A DNA stretch of 63,935 nucleotides, counting the filler, from Rozella allomycis CSF55 (lineage: Eukaryota), in assembly GCA_000442015.1 (NCBI GenBank). It is 5 parts of 5 records of this genome, joined end to end, with 100 filler letters (N's around TTAATTAATTAA, not from the genome) between each part and the next. Parts side by side here need not be neighbours in the genome. Positions count along the whole stretch, not along the records: positions 1 to 31,812 come from KE560395.1; 4 more parts are not named here. One strand, 5' to 3'. Positions 10,115-60,346 of this stretch are shown piece by piece. Both the position numbers and the translations under genes were made by a program. Under the pieces are notes generated by a model. That model did no database searches. It was not told where the DNA came from and was given only the letters and a program-made list of their open reading frames with translations. Numbering within the stretch: the first letter of the stretch is position 1; every line of letters begins with the position of its first letter.

Positions 10115-11542
10115 TTAATAACAAATAAATTCTGAAGGATCAGTTTCTCTAGCGATCTGGTCAAATTCTTCAAGTGGAAAAAGAACATCTTGTTTCGTAA
10201 TAATTTGTTGTCTTAATGAATTAGAAATATTCAAAATGCTTTTTTCTGTACAACTTTTTAACACCCAAGCACAGTAATCGTCAAGAAATAGTTCATTGAC
10301 CAAGAATCGCAATTCATCACCTTCAAATAGCGTCTTGGCTTTAATAAGTGCTTTCAAAACCCCGCGTTTTCCCAAATTTAACAATTTTTGAAGATCTTTC
10401 AATACTTGATTGCAAAGATCCCAATTTCTATACAAAGGATAAGTCAAAGACCTTCTATAGCACGATACTAGAACATCTTTTAAACATTTAAATTCCTATC
10501 ATAATTAAAGAAAATACATTGTACGGATAAACACGATATAGTGGAAGAAATCTTGGTGATAGTCCAAGTCGACTCTACATTGAAATCTTCCTCTGTAACT
10601 CTTAGTTCATACAGAAAAGCGTATAGTATATCTACTAGCCCGTATAAAACATATTCAACGTTTGTATTTTCAACTATTATTGAAAGTTTAAAAAATTTAC
10701 ACGTCCTCATCTGGGGATCATTCAGTAGTTCCTTTTCTTCGTTGCTAAACAATATCACATCTGATATCTTTGAATTCTTGTCTTCTGACAATATTTTATG
10801 AAATTCGTCAAATGAACTTTGGAAACTCAACAATTCTTCGATTCTCGGATTAAACTGATCAGCTCTGCATTATAGATAATCATAAAACGTTACATGTAAT
10901 AATTAGGATCAAACTGTTCATCTTCATTTTTTCTTTGAATTTCCCTCTTTTCTTCAAGACTTATGTTTTCGGGATCTGAAAACTCGATAATTTCATTCTT
11001 TGAACTACTGTCGCCGAGAATCCCAGAATATTTCTTATCAAAGCCATACAACCGCTTCTTGTTGGGCAAATCATTGGATCTTATCCCAAGTTGAAAATTA
11101 CATTCCCTCAAAGGTCTGTTTCCCTCCACACACTCATCCTTATTTAGATTCAAAGGCTCATCGTTATTTAAATCCGTAGGCTCTTCAGTGACTTCTTCTT
11201 CGTTTACTTCATTCAAAAGATTAATATCAATCTCAATCGCTTTAATATCGCGTAAATCTCCAAAATCTTCACCACTAACATTCTTCAAAAACTTCATTCC
11301 TATTATTCCAGTCTCCTCGTCAAAAGGCGTGATCTGCGCACCCTCTTTTTGTATTTCCCCGGGAAATATCAAGTGCAGATAATACGGCATCGCGAAAACT
11401 TTAAGATCCTTGCCATTAATGTGTATCTGGATTTCAAGAGTCTATTGAAAAAAATCTATCATTTTACTTTAATAGATTTGCATTCCAAAACGAGCTCCAA
11501 CTCATCTGCCGTTTGGCTCAACTCAAATTTTGGCGTTAGCAT
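10115..11542 (-). CDS. SHQ1: H/ACA snoRNP assembly factor Shq1
   Basis: MLTPKFELSQ (CS-domain start), PYYLHLIFPG, YGFDKKYSG, LVDILYAFLYELR...ESTWTITKIS and RRSLTYPLYRNWDL. Confidence 0.92.
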
Positions 11543-17098: not shown

Positions 17099-20000
17099 TT
17101 ATTTATAGGGAATACCATTAGTCTGCTTTTGAAAAGAATCATATAATTTAGATCTTTTGCTTTCATAAGAATTCAATATCAAGTTTTTCACATACTGTAC
17201 AACTTTGGTATCATGTAAATGCAAAGCAAACCTATTCTCCAATTTCCTCACAGTTTGATCTAAAAACAAATTAACTATTTCACTACCTTTAAAGCACGGC
17301 AGCCCACTATTGCGCATCAACGAGACAGAATCAACAATCATCGCATAATGCTTTCTGGCCACATAAAAAGCTTGAATACACATAGTTTCGTACAACTTGT
17401 AATAATAATCGTTTGGATCTGAGTCAATGATAGCCAGCATTTCAGACGTTAGTTTAAACGGCGCACTTTCAAAATTGATACCTCCTGGCGATATATCAAG
17501 AATAAACCCAAAATCTACATTCAAAGAGCAACCAAACCTTACCAATGTGAACAATGTGGCCCTTTTCATCAATCATGATATTCCCATTATGTCTATCCTT
17601 GATCGCCAACAAATAGCAGATGATTGAATACGCAGCGATACTCTGAATAAACGCAATTTTAGCTTTATGGAATCCATTGGAATGTTCTTTGCCAAATTTC
17701 AGAATAAAGAATTCGTAAAGATCATTCAGCTTTTCTCTGCCCATTTGATCCCTGCTCATTGAATTTGGAATAACTTCAATGATCCCCATGCCAGCGCCAG
17801 TCGCAACAACACGGTAGGGAAAGAGATACAGTGGGAGGTTCAGATCGGAATAGATTGTTCTGAAAATAGCCACCAGCTGAAGAGCCAAAACATCTTGTCT
17901 GCAGTCGTCGCCTACTTTGAAAATAGCTGATTGCCATTGTTCAGAGCCATCGTTGTTCTTTACATGAAAAGTAGCCATGAAAGGCGCCTTGAAAATATAT
18001 TGTTTATGTTTATTACTTTGGCGTGAGATTGCAATGGACGACCTGACAGATAATCAATGTCAATGACTGTTGATTCAGGGTTGCTGGGGAGATAGACGCC
18101 AGGATCAACAGAAATCTTTGCAAGTTCTTCATCAATCTTTTTCTTCTTTTCAGTTTTACTCTTTTTAACAAATGGACGCAGAGTTCCACTGATGCTTGTA
18201 ATTTTATCAAAGAAATCAAATTCTCTTTTATAAAATTCTAAATCAGGAGGATTAAATCTATCTATTATTTGTTTTATTATTCTTTCAAAAACAGGGGCTA
18301 ATTCATTAGGCTATAATAAATGATTAAATGGAGTTACTTGCATTGTTTCCCAACTCACATACATGTTCGCTTTAATGTTCCAAATGATTTGATGAGCNTA
18401 GGATTGAATCTATCTATTATTTGTTTAATTATTCTTTCAAAAACAGGGGCTAATTGATCAGGCTATATTAAAAGATTAAATGGAGTTACTTGCATTGTCT
18501 CCCAACTCACATACATGTTCGCTTTAATGTTCCAAATGATTTGATGAGCGAATTGTGGAGAAACAAACGCAGTTCTTAATATAAACTCTTCAACTGCGCC
18601 ACATCCATCTAATCTTAAAGCTTGAACAATTTGGGGAATAAAGAATAAATTATCATGTGGTGAATGAGAATGTAAAACTCTGAAACAAAAGTTTTGCAGA
18701 ATTGCTTTTTGAGAGAATTTGTGTTCCAACACTGTTATTGCTGAAGGGATCGGAATTCTCTTCCAATACAACAACAACTTTTATTAAACATGAGTTAATT
18801 TTTACGTGACATAAAGCTTCTTCATTCATTTTCTTGTAAGAATTGAGAACAAATTGCATGCATTTAGGATAATCAACAAATGCGTTGGCTTTGGATGTAA
18901 TAAAAGTTATCACATCTTTATTATCAAAGAAATATGGATTTGTAAAAATAGAAACAAACAATTTCTGATTCAAATTAAAAATATTCCTTAACAAATCCTA
19001 ATTGAACATTTAAGATATAATATTACAGGGGTATAAAAACTATCTCTTGGATCTAATGGTTTTGGTAGATTTGTATTATACAAAGAATAGAAATGAGATT
19101 CTAGAGTGTAACAAATGCAAATAAGAACTTCACCACAATCAAAAGATCTTTCATACAAAGTATTTCCTATTAATTAAATTAATGAAATTTACTAATTTTA
19201 GAAGGATTTGTTGAATTTGTANACAAATAAGAACTTCACCACAATCAAAAGACCTTTCATACAAAGTATTTCCTATCTTTGCAATTAATGAAATTTACTA
19301 ATTTTAGAAGGATTTGTTGAATTTTTATCTGTTAATCTGCTAGTGATTGATTCTTTAAACTGATCAATTTCATTCAATAAATCAACTGCATTCAAATTTG
19401 GATCAAATGGCATTTCCAAACAATTGTTGGCTAGAGTGGAGAAACCTTCTAGTAAAGAAGAAATCATATTAGCAGCAAAGAAAGCATCAGAGATTAATAA
19501 AAGATGAAATATTTTGATTGAAAGATGTGATAATAATTTAAATGCGTTTGAAACACTCAATGGGGAATTAATTTCACAAAGAAGATTCAAAGTCATTTCT
19601 GTTACATAAATAAACTGTTCAATTGTATAAATAAATCTAGTTAGAAGATTTAACGCTTTCAATAAATCTTTCACATCAAATCCCAATTTAATTTCATCTC
19701 TTTCAATTGGATTAAAATGAATTGAATAATCAAAATTTAATTCTTTTTCTTTCCTTTCATTTTTATTTGTTTTTTCTTTCCCTTTAATCAACAAAATCTT
19801 AAACAACCTTCTAACAAGGGTTGGTAACAATTCAAGTTTATGACACACAAAATAATTAACAAATTCAAATAAATTATGATTCTTAATACATTCTCTTAAA
19901 ACATTCTCCATATTTGAAAATGTTAATTCTATTCCAAGTTGTTTCATTCCAATCACTAATGGTCTATCATACTTTACTTCAATCTGTTTAAACAACTTTC

Positions 20001-23491: not shown

Positions 23492-24180
23492 ATGAATGCA
23501 CACACGACGGATTTATATACTCCAGTAACTTTTAAATAATCTATAAACGAGGTCCCGACAAGTGAAATCCCCGAAACATCCACGCACCAAGAAACCGCAC
23601 AACCTATGGCGCCCACTTCCAAAGACGCAGTATTTGTAAATATTCCAGCGAAGCCAAGTCCCGAAAACTCAGTAAAGCTTGATGCCACTGGAGAGATACC
23701 ACCAGTAAGCATAAATTTGGTTGTTAATGTAGACTTATGAATCAGTGGCTACAGATGCTGTTCCACCTTATACAGAACCTACAATTAATATTAATTTAGT
23801 CTCTGAAGAAATGCGAGGTAATATTTGTTGTGTTGTTTGATCAAGATCTTGTTGATGGCTATCCAGTCGGACATCCAGTGACGTTTCTAGTGTCATTTTT
23901 CATATCAGTGTTTTTCCAGACAATTGGATTTGTAATGTCTTTTGTTATGGCATCTGACCATTCAGGCCGCTTTGGATCATTAGCTGGGTTTGGGTTGAAT
24001 TTGGTGTTGATGGTTGTAAGTGATTACAAAAGCTTTTTTGGTGATGATAATGCCATGATATTCTTGAATTCTTTTATTGGTATATTTGGATTACTGATTA
24101 TGGTGTTTTCTATTCGCAGATATATTTCTATGAGGAAACTCGTTTGCAATCCGGTTTCGCCACAAGCTGAAAATGTCTAG
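23492..24180 (+). CDS. Bsd2/NDFIP-like Nedd4-family adaptor (PY motifs + 3 TM)
   Basis: AVFVNIPAKP, PPTYE...AVPPY, DGYPVG...FQTIGFV...GSLAGFGL; 3 tiny introns. Confidence 0.8.
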
Positions 24181-24401
24181 TAAAAAGTTATTCGATCTGT
24201 TCACAATAACGGGTCATAGTTATGTTGCATAAATAAATCGCCCTAGTCTTTTATAGTAAATGCTACAAGTTAGATCTAAAGTTTCATTTTTATTAAGCAT
24301 CGTTGATATCATTAAATTAGCATAGCTATGCGTATACAAAATTAATTAATTCTTTCAAAGTTTGAAAGACCAATTATCCAATTAAACCCTGGTCAAAATC
24401 A

Positions 24402-27400
24402 ATGACTGAACTTTCCTTTCAAGGACGTGTAGCAATTATCACTGGCGCAGGCGGTGGTCTCGGCCGCACCTACGCGCACCTGCTAGCATCTCGTGGAGCG
24501 AGCATTGTCGTGAATGATTTGGGGGTGACTCGCAGCGGGTCAGGGCACTCATCCAATGCAGCGGATGTTGTAGTTTCTGAAATTGTGAAGAATGGGGGCA
24601 AGGCTGTTGCAAACTATGATTCTGTTGAGGATGGCGACAAGATTGTTGCGTGTGCATTGAAAGCGTTTGGGAGGATTGATATAGTGATTAACAATGCGGG
24701 GTAAGAGGATGGGATGTTTGGGAGTAGGATATTGAGAGACAAGAGTTTTGCCAAGATGAGTGATGAGGACTGGGATCTGGTGTATCGTGTGCATGTGAGG
24801 GGCAGTTATAAGGTGACCAAGGCTGCGTGGCCGCATTTGATGAAGCAAAAGTATGGGAGGTATGGTTGATGGGTGGTTGTTAGTAGGATTATAATGACGT
24901 CGAGTGCCGCTGGGATTTATGGGAACTATGGGCAAGCTAATTATAGTGCGGGTAGGTGTTGTTTGGAGGTTTTATTGTAGCTAAAGCGGCGTTGGCTAGT
25001 TTTGGGTTTACATTGGCGAGAGAGGGGGCACGAAATAATGTTTATACGAATATTATTGCACCGTTGGCGGCATCGAGGATGACTGAGAGTGTGTTGCCGC
25101 CTGAGTTGCTAGCTGCATTGAAGCCTGAATTTGTGGCGCCAGTTGTTGGATGGCTGTGTCATGAGAAGAGTGAGGAGAATGGAGGGTTGTTTGAGTTGGG
25201 AGCGGGGTATGTTGGCAAGTTGAGATGGGAGAGAAGCAAAGGGGTGCTGTTGAAGACTGATGAGAGTTTGACGCCTGCAGCTGTTGGCGCCAAGATTGAA
25301 GAGGCTATGAATTTTAAGAATGTGGAGTATCCAACTGCGATAACTGATACTGATTGGGTAGGATTGGCGGAAAAGGCCAGGGAATTGAAGAGGAATGAGA
25401 GTAGGGAGGATATGAGGTTTGATGGAAGAGTGGTGATTGTTACTGGAGCAGGAGCGGGTATTGGCAGATGTTATGCATTGATGTTTGGAAGATTGGGAGC
25501 AAGTGTTGTGGTGAATGATTTGGGCGTGAGTACAACAGGACAGGGAAGCAGTTCAAGAGCTGCAGATAAAGTTGTTGAAGAGATTAAAGGCTTTGGTGGA
25601 AAGGCTGTAGCTAATTATGATTCAGTTGAAGAAGGGGAGAAGATTGTTGATACGGCAATTAAATCGTTTGGAAGGGTTGATGTTGTCATTAATAATGCTG
25701 GGATATTGAGAGACAAGAGTTTTATGAGGATGAGTGATGAAGATTGGGATTTGGTGCAAAGAGTGCATGTGAGAGGTAGTTTTAAAGTGGCTAAAGCGGC
25801 ATGGCCATTTATGATTAAGCAAAAGTATGGAAGAATAGTGAATACAGCATCAGCGGTTGGATTATATGGAAATTTTGGACAAGCTAATTACAGTGCGGGT
25901 AAAGTGGAGTTTATTTATATATTTAATAGCAAAGTTGGCGTTGGTTGGGATGAGTAACACTTTGGCGCAAGAAGGAAGTAGATTTAATATTAAAGTGAAT
26001 ACTGTGGCACCAAATGCAGGTACCAGAATGACAGGTAAAGAATTTTAAAGAAGATTAATAGCAACGATATTGCCACCAGAGATAGTGGAAGCATTGAAGC
26101 CTGATTTTGTAGCGCCGTTTGTTGGATATTTAGCCAATGAAAAGAATGAAGTTAGTGGAGGTGTGTTTGAAGTTGGATCAGGATGGATATCAAGAGTTAG
26201 ATGGCAGAGAAGCAGGGGAGTAGCATTTCCCATAAGGAATGGATTTAGTATTGAGCAAGTTGCATCCAAGTGGAAAGAGATTGTTGATTTTAAGAGTGTT
26301 GATTATCCAACTAATCCAACTGAGTCTCTTTCAATGATGATATCAAGTGTAGAGAATGTTAACAAACCAAGTGACAAGACTGATGATAAAGCAATTGATA
26401 AGACTACTGTTAAGAGTGTGAATGTGGAAGAGATAAGAAAAGTAGAGTTGCCAATATTTGATTATAAATTGAATCAAGAGATTGTTATTTTGTATAATTT
26501 GAGTGTTGGAGCTAAAAGAAAAGATTTAAAGTATACGTTTGAGTTGTCTGATGGATTTTCAGCTGTTCCTTCAATTGGAGTGATACCAGGGTTTCTGTCA
26601 TCGTTTAGTGTTCCATTGGATAAATATTTACCACCGTTTAATCCAATGATGTTATTGCATGGAGAACAATATTTAGAAATTGTTGGGAATGTTCCAATTA
26701 AAGGAGAAATGAAATCTCAATCTAAAATAGTTGATGTTGTTGATAAAGGGAAAGCAACAGCAGTGTTAATAAAGACAATAACAAAAGATGAGAATGGAAA
26801 TGTTTTATTTGTTAGTGAATCTACTAGTTATATTTTAGGCTTAACAAAATTAAATGTTGGAAAGAAATGGTCAGTTGAAAGACCATCAGCTGCAATATCT
26901 GATAATCATCCACCTAATCGTTCACCTGATTTTGTTTCAAAGGATTTTATTCCAGAAACACAAGCAGATTTGTATCGTTTATTAGTTGATAAGAATCCAC
27001 TTCATGTTGATCCCTTAATGTCTTCTTTAGCTGGATTTGATCAACCTATTTTGCATGGGTTGTGTACATTTGGTTATTCAACTAGAATGATTCTTGAAGC
27101 GTTTAATTTAAATTCAAATCAAATTAAATCAATCAAAGTTAGATTCAATAAACATGTTTTCCCTGGTGAAACAATTCAAACTGAAATGTGGAAAGTTGAA
27201 AATAAAATCATCTTTCAAGTCAAAGTCTTGGAAAGAAATGTGTTCGCTATAACAAATGCTGCTATTGAATTAAAAGATTCTTCTTTTCCAAAATTAATTG
27301 CTTCTTTTTCTTCTTTCAAATCAATTCCCTTGTTAAAAAGTTTAAAGTTAAATTCTGATTTAGCCAAAGTAAGTTTATCTTTCTATTTCAACTAGTTGAA

Positions 27401-29576: not shown

Positions 29577-30602
29577 TTAGACGGCATCGGTAATTATAAT
29601 TTGACGGATCTGCCCAGTGGTTGGAGATTTGATAGTCCATTCCTTGTTGATAACTTCTAGATTGAGTTTTCCACAATTGTTGCGCTTGATCTTTACGAGA
29701 TCAAAGTTGCATAAATAGCATTTGGAACTGGTGTTTGAGATGAAGACGGTTGAATCGCCAATATTTATATCCAATTTCCATATTTGGGGCTTGCGCTTTG
29801 GAACACAATTCTTTCTGCGCCCTTCTCTGTCATCGATTGTAAGGCAAAGGTCCTCCAAATCAGTAGATTTTGGATCTAAGAGAATAGCATTCACTTGATA
29901 GTCAGTATCTCCCACAGGTGATTTCAATAACAATTTTTTCAAGTATGGTGCTTCAGGTTTCGTGAACAAGTCTCCCTGTTTTCTCCAGAAATACGCCCCT
30001 TCGATTTCTATTCTTTTCTGAAATATATTAATTGGTACAGATACAAGCCTAAGAGCATTCTTTTGGGCGTCTTTGAATTGAATGGACCAAGCTTTGTTTA
30101 CAGGCACAATTTTCAGTTTCTCACAGCTCTTTCCTTGCTTCTTTTTTGTTAATTTCATTGTGTTGCATAAGCAGAAAGTGCTTGATTTTCCCGTCTTGGA
30201 GTTTTTCAGAACAGTTGAAACAGTCGCTGTGTTATGTGATTTGACATCGAGATTCCAGATACCGCTTTTGCCTACAGTATCACATAGAGTTTTATTCTGA
30301 GATTGCGCCTTTGAACTTAGACAATAAGCTTTCCCTGGTGCATCAAACGTGGAGTTGGGAAAAACAAGAAATGTACTGATCACATGCCAGGAGACCTTGT
30401 ATGACCATTTGACAATATCAGATGTGTTTGCTACGCATGAAGACATTAGAGTATCATTAAAACGTTCCATTCTATTCAAATATAATCCTTTAGTTTCTTG
30501 GCAAATTAATGAAGAGTCATCAATTGGCGTTGTATACTTGGTGCTTTCTGCAGACACAATACATATCAGAGCCAAGAGGCAGGAATATAGGAATGAAATC
30601 AT
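29577..30602 (-). CDS. Secreted Cys-rich protein with two ~150-aa repeats (possibly ricin-B/beta-trefoil-like)
   Basis: Intronless 341-aa ORF with signal peptide MISFLYSCLLALICIVSA. Repeat pairs: YCL...C...GIWNLDV vs LCL...C...QIWKLDI, and FCLCN...CEKLKI...NKAWSI vs CYLCN...CGKLNL...NKEWTI. Confidence 0.7.
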   Translation of the reverse strand: MISFLYSCLLALICIVSAESTKYTTPIDDSSLICQETKGLYLNRMERFNDTLMSSCVANTSDIVKWSYKVSWHVISTFLVFPNSTFDAPGKAYCLSSKAQSQNKTLCDTVGKSGIWNLDVKSHNTATVSTVLKNSKTGKSSTFCLCNTMKLTKKKQGKSCEKLKIVPVNKAWSIQFKDAQKNALRLVSVPINIFQKRIEIEGAYFWRKQGDLFTKPEAPYLKKLLLKSPVGDTDYQVNAILLDPKSTDLEDLCLTIDDREGRRKNCVPKRKPQIWKLDINIGDSTVFISNTSSKCYLCNFDLVKIKRNNCGKLNLEVINKEWTIKSPTTGQIRQIIITDAV

Positions 30603-30889
30603 GGATGAAAGACGAATTCGGATAAATGACGGATATTTTAACCGTTACTTAGAAGAAAATCCTCCGATTGGTGAATGGTAGGAACAATTGCTGAATTGAT
30701 AGTTTAAATTCATTTTCAGGTAATTATTTCTAGATTAAGCACTCTTTTGGTAAAATTCAATAGATTTGATNAGGTTTGAATTCGATTTCAGATAATTATT
30801 TCTAGATTAAGCACTGTTTTGGTAAAATTCAATAGATTTGATGTTTGTATTACGTAAATTTCTATCAGATTGGATTTGGACCCTGGTAG

Positions 30890-31812
30890 ATGAGAATTTT
30901 TTTCTTTTTAGCTGCAAGCATTTTGGGTGAAAAGGCATGGAGTAAGCCCGATTCAAGCGGATCAATTAATTCACTTCCCGACAATGTTATTCGAAGAATC
31001 GAAAGTTATTTAGACACTAACGCTACTATGTCTCTTCGAGCAACGAATAGTTTCTATTACAATTTATTAGATGCAATGGACGCAAAGGATGTTGTGAAAA
31101 AATTCAAAGAGGCTGTAAGGTCTCAAGATTCCAAAAGGATAAGAGAAATTGTGCAATCGAAAGAGGCAAGAAGTGATATTTATGAGACAAAAAATGCAAA
31201 GTTGATTTCCGTGATTTTCCTTACAAGTTTAGATTTAGAACCAGCTCTTAAATCTACCATTATGGTAGAAATCAGCAACACGAATAATTTATGGCCTTTG
31301 ACTGACCAGCTTCTTGGTTCCAAAAGTATTACTGCAAAATTAGAAGGAAACGAATTGTACAAATCAATAATTTCAAAGGCCAATGTGCATAACGTTATGA
31401 CCAAAGCCGCCTGGTATGATTGTGTCAATATTTTTGCAATGTTTCAAACATCAAGAGCTTACCACGTGAAGAAAAGCGCATATCTATTCCAAAAAATCAT
31501 GGCAAAAGTTATTGCTAGGGATTCCATCAAGATTTTCAAATTATTAGATTTGCAAAGTCATATTAACCCTTATTCGCAAATTGAAATACCCCCGGGAAAG
31601 ACTATTGAATATGGTGATACGTATTTAAGTCGCGCAGTTGCCAATGATGCCCCGAAAATATTTGAATTTCTTTTAAATAAGCTTGAGAAGACTAGTTTGG
31701 GTATTGTTTTACGTATGGAAGCATCAAAAGCAGCAGAATTGAGTTCACCAAACGTCGCAACTTTGTTGGTTCGAAACTTTATGTATTCACCATCTATAAC
31801 TGACGTCCTCAC
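30890..31812 (+). CDS. Putative secreted F-box + ankyrin-repeat protein (truncated by gap)
   Basis: Hydrophobic N-terminus MRIFFFLAASILG; INSLPDNVIRRIESYLD...LRATN matches the F-box pattern; ankyrin-like units such as YGDTYLSRAVANDAPKIFEFLL. Intronless. Confidence 0.7.
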
Positions 31813-31912
31813 NNNNNNNNNNNNNNNNNNNNNNNNNNNNNNNNNNNNNNNNNNNNTTAATTAATTAANNNNNNNNNNNNNNNNNNNNNNNNNNNNNNNN
31901 NNNNNNNNNNNN
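31813..31912. other. Artificial contig-joining spacer (N44-TTAATTAATTAA-N44)
   Basis: 100-nt spacer with an all-frame stop linker, repeated identically four times in the window. Confidence 0.97.
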
Positions 31913-33784: not shown

Positions 33785-35116
33785 ATGGACAATACTAGTA
33801 CACAAAGACTTGAAATAGAGGCAAGGGATAATACCGACCCAGAGAAAGATTATAAAGAGAACTTGAGATTTTTTTGCATTCAAGTTAAAAATCTATTTAA
33901 GCCTCTCCTAATTACGTTTTGTTTAGTATCTTGGTTTTCATTAACTACAATTGACGAGAAAAGTAGTAATTTATCACCGTAAACTTTTAAACATTATTTA
34001 AATCAAGAACTTTGGTTTATAAGCAGTCATCCGGTGATTCGACTTCAACCATTTTGGGTGGGTCCTTAATCAATGCATTGATAGTATTAGGTTCGATTGT
34101 TGGGATGACTCTTTTATTTGTGCTATGTTATGTTCTCAAATTATACAAAGTAAGGATTTTCAATTACTTAGAGCAGTTAATATATGCATGGCTCGGCCTT
34201 TCAACGTCAATGATTCTCGGAGGCACCGGAGGATTGACTTTCTATGGTATAATAAGATATTACAATATCGCCATGGATTATGTAACGTTCTTTTTCTGCT
34301 TGTGGAACTTTGTAGCAGTCGGATTGTTATGCATATATTATCATGCGCCGTTATATATTCAGCAATCCTATTTAGTGGTAGTTTCTGCATTACTTGCAAC
34401 AAACATGGCACGCTTGCCGGAATGGACAGCATGGTGCGTGGTGAGCGTAGTATCTATTTACGGTAAACAATAGTATTTGTAATTGTAAGACCTTTTCGCT
34501 GTCCTTTGCCCAAAGGGTCCTCTGAAAATGCTTATTAATACCGCAGAAGAAAGAAATGAAGCTCTTCCTGGTTTATTATATTCTGTGGGAATGGCAGATA
34601 CGTCAAAATCAATGAAAGCAGCACCTGGAGTTTATCAAGTTCAAGTAGGTATCGATGATTTAGAAAACAAAAATTCTTTCGAGATTGTTGATAATATAAC
34701 CTCTCCTGAAGTTGAAACAGATGACACTATNGGCATCACCTGGAGTATATCAAGTTCAAGTAGGTATTGATGATTTAGAAAACAAAAATTCTTTTGAGAT
34801 TGTTGATAATATAACCTCTCCTGAAGTTGAAACAGATGACACTATTAGAGACGGAGTGAAATTGGGGCTCGGGGACTTTATCTTTTACAGCGTAATCATT
34901 GCGAGAGCAGCCATGCTTGACTGGATTTCATTTGTTACTTGTTCAATATCTCTTTTGACTGGACTTTGCGGAACTCTATTACTATTGATGGTATACGAAA
35001 AAGCACTTCCTGCTTTACCTATATCGATTGCTCTTGGCTTGATATCTTACTTTACCTCTCGCTACTTAGTTATTCCATATATTGTATTTTTAAATAAAAA
35101 TGGATTAGTTATTTAG
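33785..35116 (+). CDS. PSEN: Presenilin (gamma-secretase catalytic subunit, A22A)
   Basis: [20 protein letters not shown] (split by an intron), [11 protein letters not shown] and ALPALPISI; both catalytic aspartates are present. Confidence 0.95.
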
Positions 35117-44694: not shown

Positions 44695-46413
44695 ATGGCA
44701 TTTTTCGCATTCGCCCTGAAGTTGGTGAAGCATTCACCTTGTTTTATTTATTGCGATTCTCAAAATATTTCAAAGCCAATACATGAGAATAGACCATTTG
44801 TTATCAAGAAACTACGATTTGCAGATGTTATTCCTAAAAGGCCACAGAATTTCACCCTATTTAAAAGATGCATTAGGCTAGCAGCATTTTTTATTCCTTT
44901 GTTAATATCTTACCCATTNGGAATTTCACCCTATTTAAAAGGTGCATTAGGCTAGCAGCATTTTTTATTCCTTTGTTAATATCTTACCCATTCTTTAAGC
45001 CTTGTAAAATAGTTTGGTACAAATGGTTCAAATGGACCCTTAGCAGGAACGGTGCATGCTTTATAAAGTTGGGTCAATGGCTGTAAAATATATAATATAT
45101 GGAAAAAGAGCAACACAGACTAGTATTGTTGGTAAAGACTTTGCTCGTATTTTATGTGACCTTCACGATTCTGCTTATGTTCATATCATGGATGAGAAAG
45201 CAATTCTTGGAATAAAGGGGTTAATCAATGTTGCAGTAAAACCGATTGGAGCAGGATGCATCGCTCAGGTAACATAATCTATTGAAATGTATAGGTTCAC
45301 AAGGGTGTGTGGAATGCTGATGGTGTTTTGCAAGAAGTTGCTGTAAAAATCAGACATCCGAAAGTGTACGAAAATGTAGTTTGCGATCTCACTATTATAT
45401 ATGAAGCATTCAAAATACTAGAGAAATTGCCAATAATCCAATCAATTCTCAGAAAGGAGCAGATTCTTGTTTTTGGCAAGTCAATGATGGAGCAAATAGA
45501 TTTGCGCAACGAGGCTGCTCATATGAATATTTTTAGAGAAAATTTTAGGAAAGAAAAGGATGTTAGTTTTCCTCGAATCTTGTACTGTGACAAGTCAACT
45601 ATTGTCGAGTCATTTGAACCCGGCACATCGTTAATGCAGTTAAAAGAACATTTGGACGAAGAAGCAAAAGAGAAGATTGTTTTCAAGACGTTAAAGGCCT
45701 TTATCAAGATGTCTATTGTTGATAATTTCACGCATGGTGATCTGCACCCGGGAAATATTCTAATACGCTTCCAGCTGAAACGAGCAAAGAAGTTTTGGAA
45801 CCGCTTTTGGGATGTAAAATCAATACCATTTTTCGATTTCTGTGGAGAAATGGATGCAATGCCGCTTCCTTTTGCTAAACCAAGATTACAAGAAACTTTA
45901 GAGTCACCAAAAGAAATAGAAACAGGACTTGAAAAGTACCCAAAGGACTATGAACCATGCCTTGTAATTTTAGACACCGGCCTAGTGACAAGACTCGAGC
46001 AAGAGCAATACACCAATCTTCTCCTACTCTTTTATTCCCTGATCCTAGAAAAGAATTCCGAAAACGCAGCCAATTTAATCCTGCGCCAAGCGCATCAGGG
46101 CGACTGCCCGAACATCAGCCATTTCCTTGTCGAGATGCCGATTCTGATTGACAGACATTTGAGAAACGGTGCTGTTCCCGATATGACTGATATTCTCGGC
46201 GAGGTTGTGTCGATTGTGAGGAAGAGCGGGGTGGTATTGGACGACAAGTTTTTGGGACTGTTGATTGGGTATCTGGTGCTGCAGTGGGTGGGAACGGATA
46301 TTGCGCGGGGTGTTGATGTCAAGGATGTTGCGAGGAGTGTGCATGATGAGTATCTTTGTAATCATAAGCCTTGGATTAAGATTATTGAAGAAAAGTATTC
46401 ACAAAAATTGTAA
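44695..46413 (+). CDS. ABC1/UbiB atypical kinase (ADCK2-like)
   Basis: FIKLGQW, PIGAGCIAQVH, VAVKIRHP, QIDLRNEA, HGDLHPGNI and LDTGL. Confidence 0.9.
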
Positions 46414-46549
46414 AGTTAATATTAATGTATTAGAATATAAAATTTATTTAATTATTTAAATTTTCAAATCTTTTTACATTCTTCTGCATTCTCTATCCAT
46501 CTTGCAACTTACTCTGTCAGTGGCTTGAGCAACCCCTGCAATAATTTTT

Positions 46550-49500
46550 ATGTCATCCTTATCAAAACAGTTAGAAACACTGCGATCTCTGAACCGCAGA
46601 TTATTTGATGCCGATGCCCCTGTGTCACTAGAGCAGACGCTGAGCCGAGCGCTTCGCGTGTTGTCTCGCCAACCGACGCTATCAAAGTACCAAGCGACGC
46701 TATTCAGTGAATCGCAACTAGGCGTAGATCGTGGCCACATGGTAAGCATATAAAAAATTCTTTAGCAGACATCCGAAGAGAGTGCAAAGTTTGACCAAGA
46801 ACTGCGGAAATTTTTGCAAGACGCGAGTAGTTTGTGGATGCGTGACGGGATGATGGATGTGTATGCGTGGTTGTGTGATAAATGGCGAGTGCATAGGATG
46901 CTTGTTGATGAGTTGCTGATGAGTGTGATGTGGATGCACGAGACTTTTGTTTTTGCTAGGATTTGTGTCAAGGTTCCTGTTGAGGAGCATGAAAGATGGC
47001 GGTTTTTGGAGGGTTATAAGAGAAAGTGGAGCAAGGTTGTGAAGAGCGGGGAGGAGGGCGAGGGGTTTGGGAGGGAGATGCTTGTTGATAGGATGAAGAG
47101 TGATAGGGACGTTGGATTGCGATTGTTTGAGTATGGGTGTTGTGTTGGGGGACGGGTGTTTGTGTTTGGAGTTTGTTTGCTGGTTGAGTGGATGCAGGGA
47201 TTGAAGGTGTTTANATGAAGAGTGATAGGGAGGTTGGATTGCGATTGTTTGAGTATGGGTGTGGTGTTGGGGGACGGGTGTTTGCGTTTGGAGTTTGTTT
47301 GCTGGTTGAGTGGATGCAGGGATTGAAGGTGTTTAATGATGAGAATGTTGTGCTTGTGTTGAAGGCTGTGAATGCTGCGATGAAGAGTGGAGATGAAGGA
47401 GTTAGAGTGGGAGGGATGATGCTTGTGTGTCAGTTGAGTTCTAATGTAAAGTTGAGTGAGCAAGTTGTTGAAGCGTTGATGGTTGAAATTGTTAAGGGAA
47501 GTGGGAAAACAGTTGATGAAGTGTTGTATGCGTTGTGTGTGTTGTTTGAAACGCAAGATTTGAAGAACATCCNGATTGTTAAAGGAAGTGGGAAGACAGT
47601 TGATGAAGAGTTGTATGCGTTGTGTGTGTTGTTTGAAACGCAAGATTTGAAGAACATCCCAGTTGAAGTATTGAATAAAATGAGTTTGGTTGATGGAATT
47701 GAAATGAAGATGAAGGAATTTGTAGATAGATATGAAATTCAAAAGTTTGTTGAGAGATTTGTGATTGGAATGATTGAAATTAGAATAGATCTAGTTGAAA
47801 AGATTATTGGAATGAGAATTGTTAAAGGAAAGATTGTGGAGAGTATTTTGAGAAAGATATTTGCCATGGAGCCAAAGAGAGGTGCAGGGGTGATAGAAAA
47901 GATGATTGAGAATTATTCTAAAGAGATGAGTGAGTTTGTTCAGTTAAATGGAATCAAAGAAGAATATTTTGGATTGATGACTGGATCATTTTCAATTGTT
48001 AAAGATCAGAGTTTATTTTTAGCGTTGAATCATTCAGAATCATTTGTGAGATTAACTGCGATTAAAGAAGTTGATAGAATTGTGAATGAAGAGAATAAAG
48101 AACAATTTAAGAGAGAAATTGGGAGTATTTTGATTGATAGATTGAGAGATGAAGATGAAGAAATAATTAACAATGTTTTGGATTTGAAGTATTTGATAGA
48201 TTTAACAGGAAAAGAAATATTTAATGAATTGTTGAGATTGAGTGAAAATGAAAAATTTAAGGATAAAATAGAAAAGATTTCAGTGGGAATCGAACGGGTA
48301 GATCCAAAAGAATATTTTGAATTTTGTTTGAAATTTGAGAAAATAGATTTTAGAAATGAAGAATATTTTGATTTGTTAATTGAAAATGAAAAGTTTAAAG
48401 AATTGATTGTATTTAGTAGAGAGAATAAAGAAATTGCTGAAAGAACAATTAGTTTAATGATTTCAAAGCCAATTAATGTTGTTAGAGAATATTTAAGAGA
48501 AATAATAGATTTAGAATTTGAAGAAGGAATTTATTTTGAAATTATTAAATATTTGATAAAGAATGGAGAAATTGAAATGATGAAAGAAATGTTTAAGAAT
48601 ATGAAGAATTTGATTTCTATTCTTAGTTCATTTGCATTACATAATGGGTTAATTGGATATGAACTATTATCAAGTTATTTCAAGTCACTCCCACGTAAAT
48701 TAACACTAATTGAAGACCATGAGAAGGAAAAGAGTGGAATGGTAGAGAATAACAAAGCTAACACTAATAAACATGATAACAAAACTAGCAATGATAACAC
48801 TACGTCTACGTTGATCTTGTTGGAGTTGTGCTTTGGATTGATGAATAAGAATAAAAGAATTAGAGAAATTTGTTTAGATTGCATTTCTTTAATAAATCAT
48901 AAATTTGTTTCAAAAATTGTTAAACTAAAAGAAAAGATTATTCTAGATCCAAAATCTATTAAATGTTTATTTAAACAAGAAATACTATTTGAAAATGTAT
49001 TCAAGAGAGATCAATTGAATTTCATTGTAGAATTATTTATAGAAAATGAAAATGATGTTTATTCATTATTAATAAACAAATTTGACAAAGTTGATGAATT
49101 AACAAAAGATGAATTTAAATTAATTTTGAAAACATTGAGATTGCAAGGGTTAGAAAAAAATATTCTAAAAATAGAAACAATGAAATTTAAGAATCTATTT
49201 TTAGAAACATCAAAAGAATTAATTCCAAAATTAAAACTAAAAGAGCAATTTGAATTATTGAATAAAATTATTAGAGAAGAAAGTTTGATTATTTTGATTT
49301 CTAATTTCTCTGCCAAAGTGTTGATTGAAATGATTGAATCTGTTCTTGTTGTTCCAGAAGAAGATGAAGTTGTAGTCGAAGGAAAGAGGAAAAAGGGATC
49401 CAAAGAAAAGAAATCAGCTGAAAAGAAACTAAAAGATGAAGAGAGCAAAGGGGACTCTATTAGCTCTGATTCCAACTCTAATTCCAACTCTAATTCAAAC

Positions 49501-52123: not shown

Positions 52124-54108
52124 TTATTGCGAAATGGCATAACCATGCTTCCTTTCATCAGCCCCCGCTTCATACCCTCCAAACTCTGCAATCTTCATCG
52201 CCATCTGCACAGCCGATCGCGGTCCCTCCTCCTCCACCGTATGCCCAATCACAGTCAATCCATTCAGTATATCCCTATCAAATCCAACCTCAACTCTAAC
52301 CTATCATCAACATTCAATCACTCTCTTACCACATCGGGATTCAGCTGGTGGTGCACCCGCGGCTCATTAACAGCCATCTGCGGCAGCATCCTTCGCACAA
52401 GCACATTCAACACACTCTCTCACTATTTAACAAGGAATTTACTTGGAATACGGCACTCGGCATATACGCGCCGCCCGATGCGCCAACCGACATGAACACA
52501 TTTCCCTGTTTTTCTATTATTAATGGGGACATTGACGATTGCGGCCGCTTGCGTGGTTCTATCATTGTCGGTTACTCAATTGTATTTACCGATGTAGTTT
52601 GAGGGGTTCGGCGGATATCCAAAGGCGTTTGGATGTGTTGGCTGGCTGAAATCGTCCATTACGTTGTTTAGCAGGATGCCGGTGGTTGGGTCGATCAACT
52701 TGGAGCCGAAAATATGATTGATCTGTGTTACATTTTTGAGAGCGATTTACTGAGCTGGTGATACTGGCGCTGAGGCCATTGCGGTCTATTACCGATACGT
52801 GAGTTGTTCCTTGATCTTTCAATGCCTGTGTGACTGTATCCGTGTAATATTGCATTGGGTACGTTGCCGCCTATTGTTGTGGAAATTGTATCTTACATCG
52901 TTTATTAGTGAGTTTATGCGCTTGGCAAACGTTTCGTCTGTTGTTGAATTGACGAAATTAGACATTCCCTCATTGAAATCAGCATCGCCCATTAGGTTTC
53001 TAATCCCGTACCCGAATTTCATACACTCAACAAGCCTATCACCTCTACAGTCACAAAATACCTGTGATAAAACGTTACGGGATGAGGCTCCCTGTCATCA
53101 AACTGGTTCAAAACGTTCAACATCGTCACTACGATATTCCCGCTTGCAGGTGTTCCCATACTATACACATTCAAGCCGTTGAATTCTCCTTGAACCACAT
53201 CGCGCATTTTAATTGAATAGTTTTTGAAATCATCCGCAGTTAATATGCCGCCATTTGATTGGATAAATTTGATGAGTGAGGTGGCGATACTGCCGGAATA
53301 GAATGCATTGGCGCCCTCTTTGGAGATTGTTTCAAGGGTTTGCGCATAGTTTGGTCGTTGGAGGGTATCGCCGATGCCTAGTAGTTGGCCTTCTGGTGCG
53401 AATACTTGGCGGAGCGTTGGCTCCTCTAGGATGTCGGATTTATATATCTGATGTTTGTTTTGAAAGTTGTAGGGTTACCTGTATGCGACGAGCTAATTCC
53501 CTATCTACTGTAAATCCGTTTCGCGCAAGTTGGATGGATGGCTCGATGAGTGTGTTCCATTCAGCTTTCTTTAGTCCGAATCTTTGGTACAGCTCCCAAA
53601 GACCTTTGACTTCCCCAGGGACACCAACTGACAGAGCGCCTATTGAATTGCGAAATTATTTAATACCCTTCACTGATTTCGATGGATCAGTTGCAAAGAT
53701 ATCAAAAGTTGAGGAACTTGAAGACATTTCTCGGAAATCCATTGCATGAATTTGCATGTTTTCATCGCGCACCATCGCCACACCTCCCCTTTGAAGGAAC
53801 CTTGTATTTGATTACCCACCAATACCCGAGGAGAATGGATTTACTGTTCCAATACAAAATAGAGCGGCTATAGCGGCTTCGATGGCATTGGCTTGTTCCT
53901 CTTCCATTACCTTTCTTGCTATTGATGTGCAGATTTCATGTTCCGTTGATATGGCATAGTGCAATTCATCGTTGATGTTCTCAGCTTTTTCGACTCTGGT
54001 GAATGTTTCATTTTTGAGCGCGATGCACATGACTAATATGGTCAAACTAATTGCTATCATGGCCACTATTACGACTGCCCTTGATTTAATCATCGACTTA
54101 ATGGGCAT
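52124..54108 (-). CDS. Gamma-glutamyltranspeptidase, type II membrane-anchored
   Basis: N-terminal TM, SSGIGGGG, DFRE, VGVPGE, GTTHVSVID (catalytic Thr), LNNVMDDFS, RPQSSMSP, GASGG and PRVHHQL. Confidence 0.95.
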
Positions 54109-55758: not shown

Positions 55759-58342
55759 ATGGACTTTAAGGCACTTTTAGAGCGATCCAAGAGCTTATCG
55801 TCACAACTTGCACAGCCTTCTATTTTACCATGCATAGATAGAAATTTAGAACAAATCGACAGCCAAACTAGGCGCCTATTTTCTGAGCAAACGTTTCCTT
55901 CTGACGCTAATGCGTAACAAATTATATTTTCCTTTAAAAGTTACTATTTATTATCTCAACGTGGATTTAATCCTGAACCGTTAGAAAATGACCTAAAATC
56001 ACTGCCTACATTGGCTATGGACGTTGAGCCTACCCCAACTGTAGCTGACACTGATGTCGTTGTAATTTTTGTGTAAATAATTTAATAGGGGTTTATAAAA
56101 CAACAAAGACAAAATTTAGTGATATCTATTTTGGAAGAGCAAAAATGCAAGAGCAAGGAGCGTGCAAAGAAAATTTATCAAGACGCTGTTAAGGCGCACT
56201 GGGAAAAAATTAAAAAGAAGACGATATCATCATTGCCACCAAAATCTGGAATGAAGGTTGCGTCAACGTCTGGGCAATTTTCATCGTCTTTGAATGAATT
56301 TTCTTTAATAGTTAAAGAATATGTCAAGGAAATTAATGAAGGAAACGTAGGTTATCAATTCTGGCCTAGACTGTTGAATGTATTGAAGAAGGTTGCTTTT
56401 AATGAGCAAATGGTTGATTGCTTTGAATTACTTTTTATGATTAATAAAGAAAGCGATAAATTAAAGGCATGCAAAACGTTTTTAGAAAAGCAAATGTTTA
56501 GATTTATTGAGAAAATGGTTCAAAGACAACCACGTGAAGCGAACGTTGGTGGAAGTCCTTCTGTGATTGACAAAGTGAGGGTAAGTATGTTAGGGACTAT
56601 TTTTAAGGGATTCCTGAATATAAAATATAAACAGTTTAATGAATGGGATCCACAATTAACCATTGTGAATAACGTCCCGATTTTCGCTTTAGTTTTTTAT
56701 TTAATTCGATGTGGTTTTTGGACTGAGGCTTTGAATGTTTCGATGCAGTATAAAGATTTCATAGAAAGAAAGGACGTCCATTTAATATCCTTTCTAAAAG
56801 CGTACATGGATGACAAGGTGAATCCATCCATGAAACAAATGATAAACTCTGAGTTTTCACGAAAGCATCCAAATGATGATAGATTTAAGGTGGCTATCTA
56901 TAAAATTCTTGGACAATGTGAAGTTGAAAAGAAGAATATTCCAGGGGTTATTCAGTCCAGGGAGGATTATTTGTGGCTTCAAGTAAGAATTTGATTTGAA
57001 AATAATTTGTATTACTTAATGAATGATACTTATGATTTGAAAATGCTGCAGAAAAATATTCGTGATTTTGGTCCAAAACATTTCAATGCGAATCATAATC
57101 AATTGAACTATTTTTCTGTTCTCGCATTATCTCTACAAATTGAACTTGTAATTCATCAACGTAAAATTAAGATAGGCGCTTGGATATTTATTTGCAGAGA
57201 CAAATTATTGTAGTGAGGCAGTTCATTGCTTTATAGCATTGTCTGGAACTCTGAACCTTAACGATTCTGTTAGCTCGGAGATTGTTGAAGAAAAGAATGG
57301 AAATTATTTGTTGAATCCAGTTCAAATGATTTTCACATTTATCAAGAACAATCAATTGCCACTGAACCTTGCAATTCCTTACGTCATTTTTCTTTTCAAC
57401 ACAGAAAAGAAAACTTATTACAAATCACTTTATTCTCTTTTGAGAGATTTAGTTATTGAAAGCAAAGAGTTTGCATTCTATTTGGGTAGCGTTAAACCAG
57501 ATGGAAATAGGATGGTAAAATTTACGAAATTTCTTAAATTATAGCCGGGGTATTTGGAAGATTATTCTAGATTTATAAAATTATCTTCAAAGAAGGAATA
57601 TAATAAGGAAATTATTGTACCCATCGCAAATCATTTAATTTCTGTTAATCAATTTGAAGAATCTTTGCATTTGTTTAACTTGGCTGAAGAATATGATAAA
57701 GTTATGGATTTGTTGAATAAGAATCTTTCAAATTCAATTTCAAATCCTAATGAGCAAATTACTTTGATGGCTCAACAAATTCTTTCTTACTATCAAAGTC
57801 AAGGAAAACCAGTAAGTCTTGAGAAAACAAAATCATGTGAAACTCTTTTGAAACTATTTCAATTCTTTTCTCTATATCGCAATCAAAAATATGAACAAGC
57901 ACAAAATGTAAATTTCTGTTTCTCATTTCAAAAGGTTATCGAAGATTTGAAAATAATTCCAACTGATCAATCACAAATTCATTCTTCTTCTGTTCAATTT
58001 GATGAACTCTTGTCTGTTCACATCCCAGAATTGCNTATTCCAACTGATCAATCACAAATTCATTCTTCTGTTCAATTTGATGAACTCTTGTCTGTTCACA
58101 TCCCAGAATTGCTGTTAGCCGTTATGAATGTTTATTCCGCCATTTACCAACGTTTGAAAACATCTCCAATTAGAGATTCCTCCCGAGAATCAGTAATTCT
58201 AACATTGTGCCTTGAACTTTAGATTTTAAGAGATATTAAAAAGAAGTCAAGAGTCATTATGATGTTTGCCAGTATTGCTCAAGTTCGTGTTCCTCAAGAT
58301 ATTTTGGCGAAAATGAACCGCTTAGATGTTTTCATGAATTAA
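55759..58342 (+). CDS. NUP93: Nucleoporin Nup93/Nic96
   Basis: LPCIDRNLEQI, REANVGGSPS, PIFALVFYLIRCG, DRFKVAIYKILG, EDYLWLQ and FGPKHF. Confidence 0.92.
56983..57009 (+). other. Candidate non-AG intron (27 nt GT-TG, or 24 nt GT-AT)
   Basis: GTAAGA donor with an in-frame TGA inside. No AG occurs until 57051, and using that AG would delete the Nic96-like YDLKMLQ segment. Confidence 0.6.
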
Positions 58343-58511: not shown

Positions 58512-58611
58512 NNNNNNNNNNNNNNNNNNNNNNNNNNNNNNNNNNNNNNNNNNNNTTAATTAATTAANNNNNNNNNNNNNNNNNNNNNNNNNNNNNNNNN
58601 NNNNNNNNNNN
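58512..58611. other. Artificial contig-joining spacer
   Basis: N-TTAATTAATTAA-N, 100 nt. Confidence 0.97.
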
Positions 58612-60246: not shown

Positions 60247-60346
60247 NNNNNNNNNNNNNNNNNNNNNNNNNNNNNNNNNNNNNNNNNNNNTTAATTAATT
60301 AANNNNNNNNNNNNNNNNNNNNNNNNNNNNNNNNNNNNNNNNNNNN
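60247..60346. other. Artificial contig-joining spacer
   Basis: N-TTAATTAATTAA-N, 100 nt. Confidence 0.97.

What the first reader, a model, noticed from the sequence alone, without database searches (positions are those of the whole stretch)
30890..31812. Signal peptide + F-box + ankyrin repeats: candidate host-ubiquitin-hijacking effector
Seen: a short hydrophobic leader, an F-box pattern at about aa 26-62, and at least four ankyrin-like helix pairs, with no introns in an intron-rich genome. Established: F-boxes act with cytosolic Skp1/Cullin1, so a secreted one makes sense mainly inside another cell; F-box/ankyrin effectors are known from Legionella (AnkB), Orientia and poxviruses. Inference: a eukaryotic endoparasite effector that recruits host SCF. 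Its position at a contig break would fit a multicopy family.
Basis: partly seen in the sequence, partly recalled or inferred. Interest (0 to 1): 0.75.

Follow-up and report, generated by a model that had tools for sequence, protein, structure and literature searches.

The report
Rozella leader plus F-box-like repeat protein
A gene of the fungal endoparasite Rozella allomycis, cut short by a contig end, encodes a signal-peptide-like leader, a weak F-box-like motif and a helical domain, so it is a plausible but unproven candidate for a secreted protein that borrows the host's ubiquitin machinery.

Summary
The ORF is real: 307 open codons at 30890-31812, cut off by a contig end. It is Rozella allomycis gene O9G_004273. 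The hydrophobic leader is there. A 572-aa paralogue (O9G_003407, 25% identical) has the same leader-then-F-box layout. The F-box call is weak but consistent. Both paralogues match Pfam F-box in the same register (15.9 and 13.2 bits, cut-off 20.5), and the best single-stretch PDB profile hit is the Cyclin-F F-box at E 0.98. Ankyrin repeats are not shown. Pfam gives no Ank hit and no internal repeat is detectable. The AlphaFold models are all-helical but poor (pLDDT 50-56). Only language-model neighbours and sub-noise structure matches point to ankyrin. The public annotation gives this gene a different N-terminus, spliced from two tiny exons inside a 72-bp tandem repeat, and that version has no classic signal peptide. 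No RNA data were available to decide. Exhaustive search finds only this gene, its copy in a second assembly and the one paralogue. A secreted adaptor for the host SCF ubiquitin ligase is my leading reading (about 0.35), barely ahead of an ordinary endogenous F-box protein (about 0.30). This would be a new member of a known kind. Interest is moderate.

The parts
30890..31812 (+). Open reading frame of 307 codons with its C-terminus missing. It is the main exon of Rozella allomycis O9G_004273 (EPZ36914.1, partial).
30890..30943 (+). Signal-peptide-like leader, aa 1-18. It has Arg at position 2, an 11-residue hydrophobic core at aa 3-13, and small residues (Ala, Ser) at -3/-1 of a possible cleavage site after aa 18.
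   Evidence: A similar leader is seen in paralogue P0003. The cleavage site is read by rule; no predictor was run.
30965..31072 (+). F-box-like motif, aa 26-61, below the Pfam threshold.
   Evidence: The residues P30, V33, R36, Y40, L41, S48, L49, R50 and T52 are invariant among the three sequences of alignment A1.
31079..31812 (+). All-helical region, aa 64-307, a possible alpha-solenoid. Ankyrin identity is not established.
31813..31912 (.). Artificial joint between contigs: 44 N, then TTAATTAATTAA, then 44 N. What follows is not shown to be linked to this gene.
   Evidence: plus the contig length of 31,812
30675..30701 (+). Exon 1 of the public gene model, encoding MVGTIAELI.
30734..30749 (+). 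16-nt micro-exon of the public gene model. It is flanked by a 32-nt intron (30702-30733, 5' GTTTAA) and a 162-nt intron (30750-30911).
30696..30842 (.). 72-bp tandem duplication (2.1 copies, 90% matches) in the 287-bp space between the two divergent genes. It covers the last 6 bases of exon 1 and all of the micro-exon of the public model.
29577..30602 (-). Divergent neighbour gene of 341 aa with a strong hydrophobic leader. It has no Pfam hit at E<=0.001, but UniRef names its copy in the other assembly a Ricin B lectin domain protein.

Best explanation
This is a Rozella-specific protein family with at least two members. Each member has a cleavable-looking N-terminal signal peptide, a divergent F-box, and a helical (alpha-solenoid, possibly ankyrin-like) domain.

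Proposed mechanism:
1. The leader sends the protein into the parasite's secretory pathway and out of the wall-less plasmodium.
2. In the host (Allomyces) cytoplasm the F-box binds host Skp1 and so recruits Cul1/Rbx1.
3. The helical domain selects host proteins for ubiquitination.

Shown: the ORF, the leader, the paralogue with the same layout, and sub-threshold in-register F-box matches in both paralogues.

Inferred: use of ATG 30890, leader cleavage, secretion, passage across the host-derived membrane, Skp1 binding, and the targets.
For: 1. The leader is the most hydrophobic 9-11-residue window in both paralogues and is too short for a membrane span. Both N-termini begin M-(R)-IFF-x-L.
2. The paralogue's leader is part of the public annotation, not my own choice of start.
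3. In this gene an intact F-box needs translation to start upstream of residue 26. The only in-frame ATG before it is 30890, directly after a TAG.
4. The alternative 5' exons of the public model lie within a 72-bp tandem repeat. They need a 16-nt micro-exon and a GTTTAA donor. At the 9 junctions where I accept the shortest in-frame solution as the intron, the donor begins GTAA in 8 and GTAC in 1.
5. Pfam F-box matches in register in both paralogues: profile 1-37 at 15.9 bits and profile 1-36 at 13.2 bits.
6. The best single-stretch hit of the family profile in the PDB is Cyclin-F residues 32-79, E 0.98. That this stretch is its F-box is recalled.
7. UniRef names the paralogue 'F-box domain-containing protein'.
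8. The family is lineage-specific. An exhaustive phmmer search of 1.84 billion representatives gave 3 hits at E<=0.001: the second-assembly copy, the one paralogue, and one spurious repeat protein.
9. Nine of the 10 differences between the two assemblies' copies fall in aa 186-263 of the helical domain.
10. The neighbour gene also carries a leader.
11. Rozella grows unwalled inside host cytoplasm (PMC6317583, passages).
12. There is a eukaryotic precedent. The Hessian fly SSGP-71 effector family has an N-terminal F-box followed by LRRs and interacts with host Skp proteins (PMC4617103, passages; that these proteins carry signal peptides is recalled).
Against: 1. All F-box scores are below Pfam's cut-offs of 20.5 and 24.3 bits. 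The whole paralogue gave no Pfam hit at all.
2. No signal-peptide predictor was available.
3. The public model of this very gene (and of its copy in the second assembly) starts MVGTIAELIIKHSF, which is not a classic signal peptide. Ultrashort introns of 26-30 nt are normal in this genome, so a 32-nt intron is not absurd.
4. [quoted passage not shown] A secreted protein would therefore still have to cross a host membrane.
5. The gene is truncated, so its C-terminal half is unknown.
6. The structure models are poor, at pLDDT 50.3 and 55.9.
Confidence: 0.35

Rival explanations
1. It is an ordinary endogenous F-box protein. On this reading it is a lineage-specific substrate receptor of Rozella's own SCF ligase. 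The hydrophobic N-terminus is then either not translated (the public spliced model here; a start at Met36 in the paralogue) or is not a working signal peptide.
For: The public annotation gives this gene a non-classical N-terminus. The paralogue has a Met exactly at the start of the F-box motif. Lineage-specific expansions of F-box proteins are common in eukaryotes (general knowledge). The language-model neighbours include a cluster of Ascomycota proteins in which 73% carry Ank_4 and 24% F-box-like.
Against: The leader is conserved in position and in its first residues between paralogues that are only 25% identical. The public 5' exons lie in a tandem repeat and use an atypical donor. If the paralogue's first 35 codons were untranslated, they would be open and hydrophobic only by chance.
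Confidence: 0.3
2. It is a secreted or surface helical protein with no functional F-box. The match at aa 26-61 would be a chance or vestigial similarity, and the protein would act at the host-parasite interface without SCF.
For: All F-box scores are below threshold. F-boxes have no partner in the secretory lumen (general knowledge). The neighbour is a leader-bearing lectin-like protein. The same profile also picked up unrelated designed LRR proteins through a short repeated motif.
Against: Two sequences about 21% identical in this segment both align to Pfam F-box positions 1-36/37. The residues invariant between the paralogues include the Pro at the start of the motif and, from my own reading of the Pfam match, hydrophobic core positions. 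The best single-stretch PDB hit is Cyclin-F residues 32-79, recalled to be its F-box.
Confidence: 0.2
3. It is a decaying or misassembled gene copy at a repeat boundary with no function.
For: The gene runs off the contig in both assemblies at the same residue. The two copies differ at 10 of 315 residues, against 1 of 572 for the paralogue.
Against: There are 307 open codons at a stop frequency of 0.07 per codon. All 10 differences are substitutions, with no stop or frameshift.
Confidence: 0.05

Closest known systems
Hessian fly (Mayetiola destructor) SSGP-71 effectors
   Same: The producer is a eukaryote. An N-terminal F-box is followed by a repeat domain. The proposed action is mimicry of host F-box proteins, and the effectors interact with host Skp proteins (PMC4617103, passages). 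That these proteins carry signal peptides is recalled.
   Different: The repeat domain there is LRR, not a helical solenoid. It is an insect-plant system and a very large family. Skp binding is shown there and untested here. I found no sequence relationship.
Legionella pneumophila AnkB
   Same: The order is the same: an N-terminal F-box followed by ankyrin repeats. AnkB binds host Skp1 (PDB 5k35 title). The low-confidence model of aa 194-302 aligns to its ankyrin domain at Z 6.0 and 5.9.
   Different: AnkB is bacterial and is delivered by a type IV system rather than a signal peptide (recalled). The Z scores are below the noise bar for helical repeats given. There is no sequence similarity in any search.
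Poxvirus and Orientia ankyrin/PRANC (F-box-like) proteins
   Same: They combine ankyrin repeats with an F-box-like Skp1-binding motif used against the host (recalled).
   Different: The domain order is reversed, with the F-box-like motif at the C-terminus (recalled). They are not secreted through a signal peptide. This was not tested here.
Rhizophagus clarus effector candidate NLS_30765
   Same: It is a fungal predicted secreted protein with an F-box-like domain, PF12937 (PMC4746824, passages).
   Different: That domain passes at 2.8e-07, whereas here the match is below threshold. The partner is a plant symbiont, the case is also untested, and no similarity was found.
Endogenous fungal F-box/ankyrin proteins
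   Same: An Atlas cluster of Ascomycota proteins (73% Ank_4, 24% F-box-like) is among the language-model neighbours at 0.93.
   Different: Whether those proteins carry a leader was not examined; F-box proteins normally act in the cytosol (general knowledge). The match is a lead only, with 135 shared features where 170 is typical of true family members.

Membership tests
F-box (Pfam PF00646 / PF12937) | A sequence match to the roughly 45-residue three-helix motif, at or above the curated score. | tested here: inconclusive
   The scores are 15.9 bits (this gene) and 13.2 bits (paralogue) against a cut-off of 20.5. F-box-like scores 14.3 bits against 24.3. Both sequences are in register at profile positions 1-36/37. 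On the whole protein E is 0.11-0.13. The Cyclin-F hit (residues 32-79) is at E 0.98.
F-box (Pfam PF00646 / PF12937) | Binding to Skp1. | not testable with these tools
A search for PF01466 in one genome and 14 control genomes found nothing. No complex prediction was run.
F-box (Pfam PF00646 / PF12937) | A three-helix fold. | tested here: inconclusive
   The model has helices at 31-41, 49-62 and 67-77, but pLDDT is below 50 for residues 1-33 and 42-56.
Ankyrin repeat (Pfam clan Ank) | Recognisable 33-residue repeats by sequence profile. | tested here: not met
   Whole P0001, P0002 and P0003 give no Ank model at E<=10. No internal repeat is found by BLAST self-comparison or hhalign self-comparison, where the best off-diagonal alignment has E 0.34.
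Ankyrin repeat (Pfam clan Ank) | A stacked helix-turn-helix solenoid fold. | tested here: inconclusive
   In VIA-align, 11 of 50 listed rows name ankyrin repeats or Ank proteins in their titles. They mostly fall on model residues about 192-306, at Z 5.6-6.3, with a best overall Z of 7.1, which is below the stated noise bar. Foldseek gave nothing at E<=0.001 and only generic solenoids. The ESM Atlas neighbours are all ankyrin clusters at 0.93-0.96, but with 128-168 shared features, under the typical 170.
Secretory signal peptide | A positively charged n-region, a 7-15-residue hydrophobic h-region, and small residues at -3/-1. | tested here: met
   There is Arg at position 2. The h-region is aa 3-13 with a mean Kyte-Doolittle score of 2.49. 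Ala16 and Ser18 sit at -3/-1 of a possible site before Lys19. This is a rule-based reading; no SignalP was run.
Secretory signal peptide | The leader is actually the translated N-terminus, and it is cleaved and secreted. | not testable with these tools
   No RNA run holds the locus. The public model has another N-terminus.

The most novel reading that the evidence does not exclude
Rozella secretes a small, fast-evolving family of F-box/alpha-solenoid adaptors. These cross the host-derived membrane and reprogram the Allomyces SCF ubiquitin ligase. This would be the first eukaryote-on-fungus case of SCF mimicry, and the first in the Rozella/Microsporidia lineage. Variation between gene copies is concentrated in the target-binding domain.
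Probability: 0.3. Interest if true: 0.7.

Novelty: new member of a known kind. Interest (0 to 1): 0.45.

Why it matters
Mimicry of host F-box proteins is established for bacterial and viral effectors and for one insect family. It is not established for fungal or opisthosporidian endoparasites.

Little is published in the searched library on how Rozella manipulates its host. My searches found no paper linking Rozella with F-box or ankyrin effectors. In one search, 3 papers held all the terms, 2 of them were listed, and I read passages of one. In some searches I saw listings only.

If the leader works and the F-box binds host Skp1, this pair of genes would be a concrete handle on host manipulation at the base of the fungal tree. 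It would also raise the question of how a secreted protein crosses the host-derived membrane around the parasite.

Tried and rejected
- **RNA evidence.** No RNA holder was listed for the locus. The one same-species metatranscriptome laid 0 contigs on it.
- **Whole genome.** None is held for this window, so no genome-wide paralogue scan was possible.
- **Paralogues in the window.** tblastn of P0001, P0002 and P0003 against the window found no second copy.
- **Word-index searches.** Queries with P0001 and P0003 returned only P0002 and P0003 itself.
- **P0004.** This 966-aa tandem-repeat protein (E 1.9e-4) is judged spurious. It matches only aa 20-69, through a repeated motif.
- **Metagenome scan.** It gave one locus, L081. 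This is a bacterial operon whose match lies in the 327-aa ORF at 2545-3528, so it is spurious.
- **Viral contig scan.** No relative was found. The giant-virus ankyrin neighbours in the Atlas therefore give no support for viral origin.
- **PDB searches.** The sequence searches gave only weak, unrelated hits: mevalonate diphosphate decarboxylase and FSP1. The designed LRR proteins at the top of the profile search score by summing a short repeated motif. They are not relatives.
- **Other Pfam hit.** TcaA_2nd at aa 68-107 (E 0.0058, below cut-off) is taken as chance.
- **Foldseek.** Neither model gave anything at E<=0.001.
- **Skp1 complex.** No Skp1 sequence could be obtained, so no complex prediction was run and Skp1 binding stays open.
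- **Sub-segment Pfam scan.** A Pfam scan of the helical region cut into sub-segments was not carried out. A sub-threshold ankyrin signal of the kind seen for the F-box segment cannot be excluded.
- **Earlier findings of this scan.** Three look-ups returned nothing.

Full report
**What is there**

The + strand ORF starts at ATG 30890, directly after an in-frame TAG. It stays open for 307 codons until the sequence runs into N at 31813. At the local stop-codon frequency of 0.07 per codon, 307 open codons have a chance probability of about 2e-10.

The block at 31813-31912 consists of 44 N, TTAATTAATTAA and 44 N. The same block recurs at three later places in the window. The annotated protein of this gene lies on a contig of exactly 31,812 bases. 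The window is therefore a chain of separate contigs. The gene is cut by a contig end, and what follows 31912 is not shown to be linked to it.

**Identity**

A search of 5.8 billion proteins returned one hit. It is a 315-aa partial protein of Rozella allomycis CSF55, 96% identical.

Its 90% cluster has a second member, EPZ36914.1 (O9G_004273, partial, 315 aa). That protein is the window's own annotation. Joining 30675-30701, 30734-30749 and 30912-31812 reproduces it over all 314 complete codons.

The rest of the window carries ordinary eukaryotic housekeeping genes with introns. Examples are presenilin, Nic96, PI3-kinase, Serinc and SHQ1.

**Relatives**

An exhaustive phmmer search of 1.84 billion cluster representatives gave three hits at E<=0.001:
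- the copy from the second assembly;
- a 572-aa Rozella protein, O9G_003407 (P0003, E 6.2e-8, 26% identity over aa 21-263);
- a 966-aa tandem-repeat protein, which I judge spurious.

The metagenome scan gave one locus, which proved to be a bacterial operon. The viral contig scan gave no relative. No second copy lies in the window. On this evidence the family is Rozella-specific and small.

The two assemblies' versions of this gene differ at 10 of 315 residues. Nine of the ten differences fall between residues 186 and 263. The paralogue, by contrast, differs at 1 of 572 residues between assemblies. Both versions stop at the same residue. This fits a divergent allele or a recent duplicate next to a sequence that breaks assemblies. 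It is not proof of a multicopy family.

**The leader**

Residues 3-13 form the most hydrophobic 9- and 11-residue windows of the whole protein, with a mean Kyte-Doolittle score of 2.49 over 11 residues. The best 19-residue window at the N-terminus scores only 0.72, so this is not a membrane span. With Arg at position 2 and Ala/Ser at -3/-1 before Lys19, it reads as a signal peptide by the classical rules. No predictor was available.

The paralogue, in its public annotation, also begins with a hydrophobic leader of the same kind and the same low 19-residue score. In the alignment both N-termini begin M-(R)-IFF-x-L.

**The competing gene model**

The public model of this gene does not use ATG 30890. 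It starts at 30675, removes a 32-nt intron, uses a 16-nt micro-exon, and removes a 162-nt intron. The last 22 bases of that second intron are exactly the first seven codons of my ORF plus one base of the eighth. Its N-terminus carries Glu, Lys and His inside the hydrophobic stretch.

Tiny introns are normal here. At junctions supported by consecutive Pfam coordinates, the shortest in-frame solutions that I accept as introns are 26-30 nt long, with 5' GTAA or GTAC. One clear case is presenilin at 34463-34489. So the public model cannot be dismissed on intron size.

Three points count against it:
- Its first donor is GTTTAA. At the 9 junctions where I accept the shortest solution as the intron, the donor begins GTAA in 8 and GTAC in 1.
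- The last 6 bases of its exon 1, its first intron and its micro-exon all sit inside a 72-bp tandem duplication (30696-30842, 2.1 copies, 90% matches) in the 287-bp intergenic space.
- It removes a leader that the paralogue keeps.

I put about 0.7 on ATG 30890. No RNA data could be found to settle this.

**The F-box**

The whole paralogue gave no Pfam hit.

Scanned as isolated N-terminal segments, both paralogues match PF00646 from profile position 1 to 36/37:
- this gene: 15.9 bits, E 0.012;
- the paralogue: 13.2 bits, E 0.09;
- the cut-off is 20.5 bits.

These segments are only about 21% identical to each other.

A profile of the family's N-terminal region was searched against 177,635 PDB sequences. 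Its best single-stretch hit was Cyclin-F residues 32-79 at E 0.98. That Cyclin-F is an F-box protein with its F-box in this stretch is recalled, not from a call. The higher-ranked designed LRR proteins score only by summing a short repeated motif. UniRef names the paralogue 'F-box domain-containing protein'.

The AlphaFold model has helices at 31-41, 49-62 and 67-77, but at pLDDT below 50 over much of that span.

Taken together, I rate a true but divergent F-box at about 0.7. By the family's own threshold, membership remains inconclusive.

**The ankyrin claim**

This is not confirmed.
- **Pfam:** no Ank model is hit at E<=10 for any of the three whole proteins.
- **BLAST self-comparison:** no internal repeat is found.
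- **hhalign self-comparison:** none either; the best off-diagonal alignment has E 0.34.
- **AlphaFold models:** both are entirely helical, with 17 helices in 308 residues and 38 helices in 572. They are of low confidence, at pLDDT 50.3 and 55.9.
- **Foldseek:** nothing at E<=0.001, and only generic solenoids such as armadillo, PPR, TPR and HAT.
- **VIA-align:** run against 48,161 chains, it gives a best Z of 7.1.
- **VIA-align, ankyrin rows:** 11 of the 50 listed rows name ankyrin repeats or Ank proteins in their titles. These include Legionella AnkB at Z 6.0 and 5.9, mostly on model residues about 192-306. From my own knowledge of the other entries, about nine more are ankyrin domains. All of these lie under the tool's stated noise bar for helical repeats.
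- **ESM Atlas:** the nearest clusters for both paralogues are ankyrin families at 0.93-0.96, with giant-virus clusters first. The shared-feature counts are 128-168, below the 170 typical of true members.

I therefore describe the domain as an alpha-helical, probably solenoid domain. Ankyrin is a lead only.

**Context**

The divergent neighbour at 29577-30602 (- strand, 341 aa) has a strong leader: its best 19-residue window scores 2.05. It has no Pfam hit at E<=0.001. UniRef names its copy in the other assembly a Ricin B lectin domain protein. So two leader-bearing, lineage-restricted genes sit head to head at a contig end.

The 'no introns' point carries little weight. Thirteen other stop-free stretches of 300 codons or more occur in the window.

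**Biology**

According to passages of PMC6317583:
[quoted passage not shown] - it grows as an unwalled plasmodium and phagocytoses host cytoplasm.

A secreted protein would therefore reach the interface. It would still need to cross a host-derived membrane to meet the host SCF. That step has no support here.

**Verdict**

It is only just ahead of an ordinary endogenous F-box protein whose leader is not used (0.30). A secreted helical protein with a chance F-box resemblance follows at 0.20.

The kind is known. There are bacterial and viral F-box effectors. There is also the Hessian fly SSGP-71 family, which has an N-terminal F-box followed by LRRs and interacts with host Skp proteins (PMC4617103, passages). 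A predicted secreted F-box-like protein has been listed for Rhizophagus clarus (PMC4746824, passages).

I found no paper linking Rozella with F-box or ankyrin effectors. In one search, 3 papers held the terms, 2 were listed, and I read passages of one. In some searches I saw listings only. The original Rozella genome papers were not read. That the two assemblies come from the first genome paper and a later single-cell study is recalled, not checked.

Noticed in passing
window 34463-34489, 10496-10524 (-), 17515-17542 (-), 57515-57544, 52871-52896 (-), 27369-27395: Ultrashort spliceosomal introns of 26-30 nt, starting GTAA or GTAC and ending AG, join consecutive Pfam-supported exons of housekeeping genes. 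The presenilin intron is 27 nt.
   Followed up: partly
window 29577-30602 (-): This is a single-exon 341-aa gene with a strong signal-peptide-like leader and no Pfam hit at E<=0.001. Its copy in the other assembly is 98% identical, and UniRef calls it a Ricin B lectin domain protein. It sits head to head with the F-box-like gene.
   Followed up: partly
window 30696-30842: A 72-bp tandem duplication (2.1 copies, 90% matches) lies in the 287-bp intergenic space. The public gene model draws the end of exon 1, an intron and a 16-nt micro-exon from it.
   Followed up: yes
window 31813-31912, 58512-58611, 60247-60346, 62832-62931: Identical joints (44 N, TTAATTAATTAA, 44 N) recur, so the window is a chain of at least five separate contigs. 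Neighbourhood across these joints is not evidence of linkage. There are also 26 single N scattered through the window.
   Followed up: yes
window 6357-6698 (-) and 5565-5948 (-): These are exons of a Cys/Met-metabolism PLP enzyme. The 114-aa piece is up to 60% identical to genes in Anaerolineae/Chloroflexota genomes. This is either high conservation or a bacterial origin.
   Followed up: no
window 24001-26000 and 46001-48000: Two 2-kb blocks have GC near 0.42 and a GC skew of about +0.44, against a background GC of about 0.33. They overlap the short-chain dehydrogenase/MFE-2 gene and the start of the 1614-codon U3 snoRNP10-like ORF.
   Followed up: no
P0005 vs P0002 (this gene), P0003 vs P0006 (the paralogue): The two public assemblies of the same strain differ at 10 of 315 residues in this gene, 9 of them in aa 186-263. 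They differ at only 1 of 572 residues in the paralogue. This could be a divergent allele, a recent duplicate or an assembly error.
   Followed up: partly
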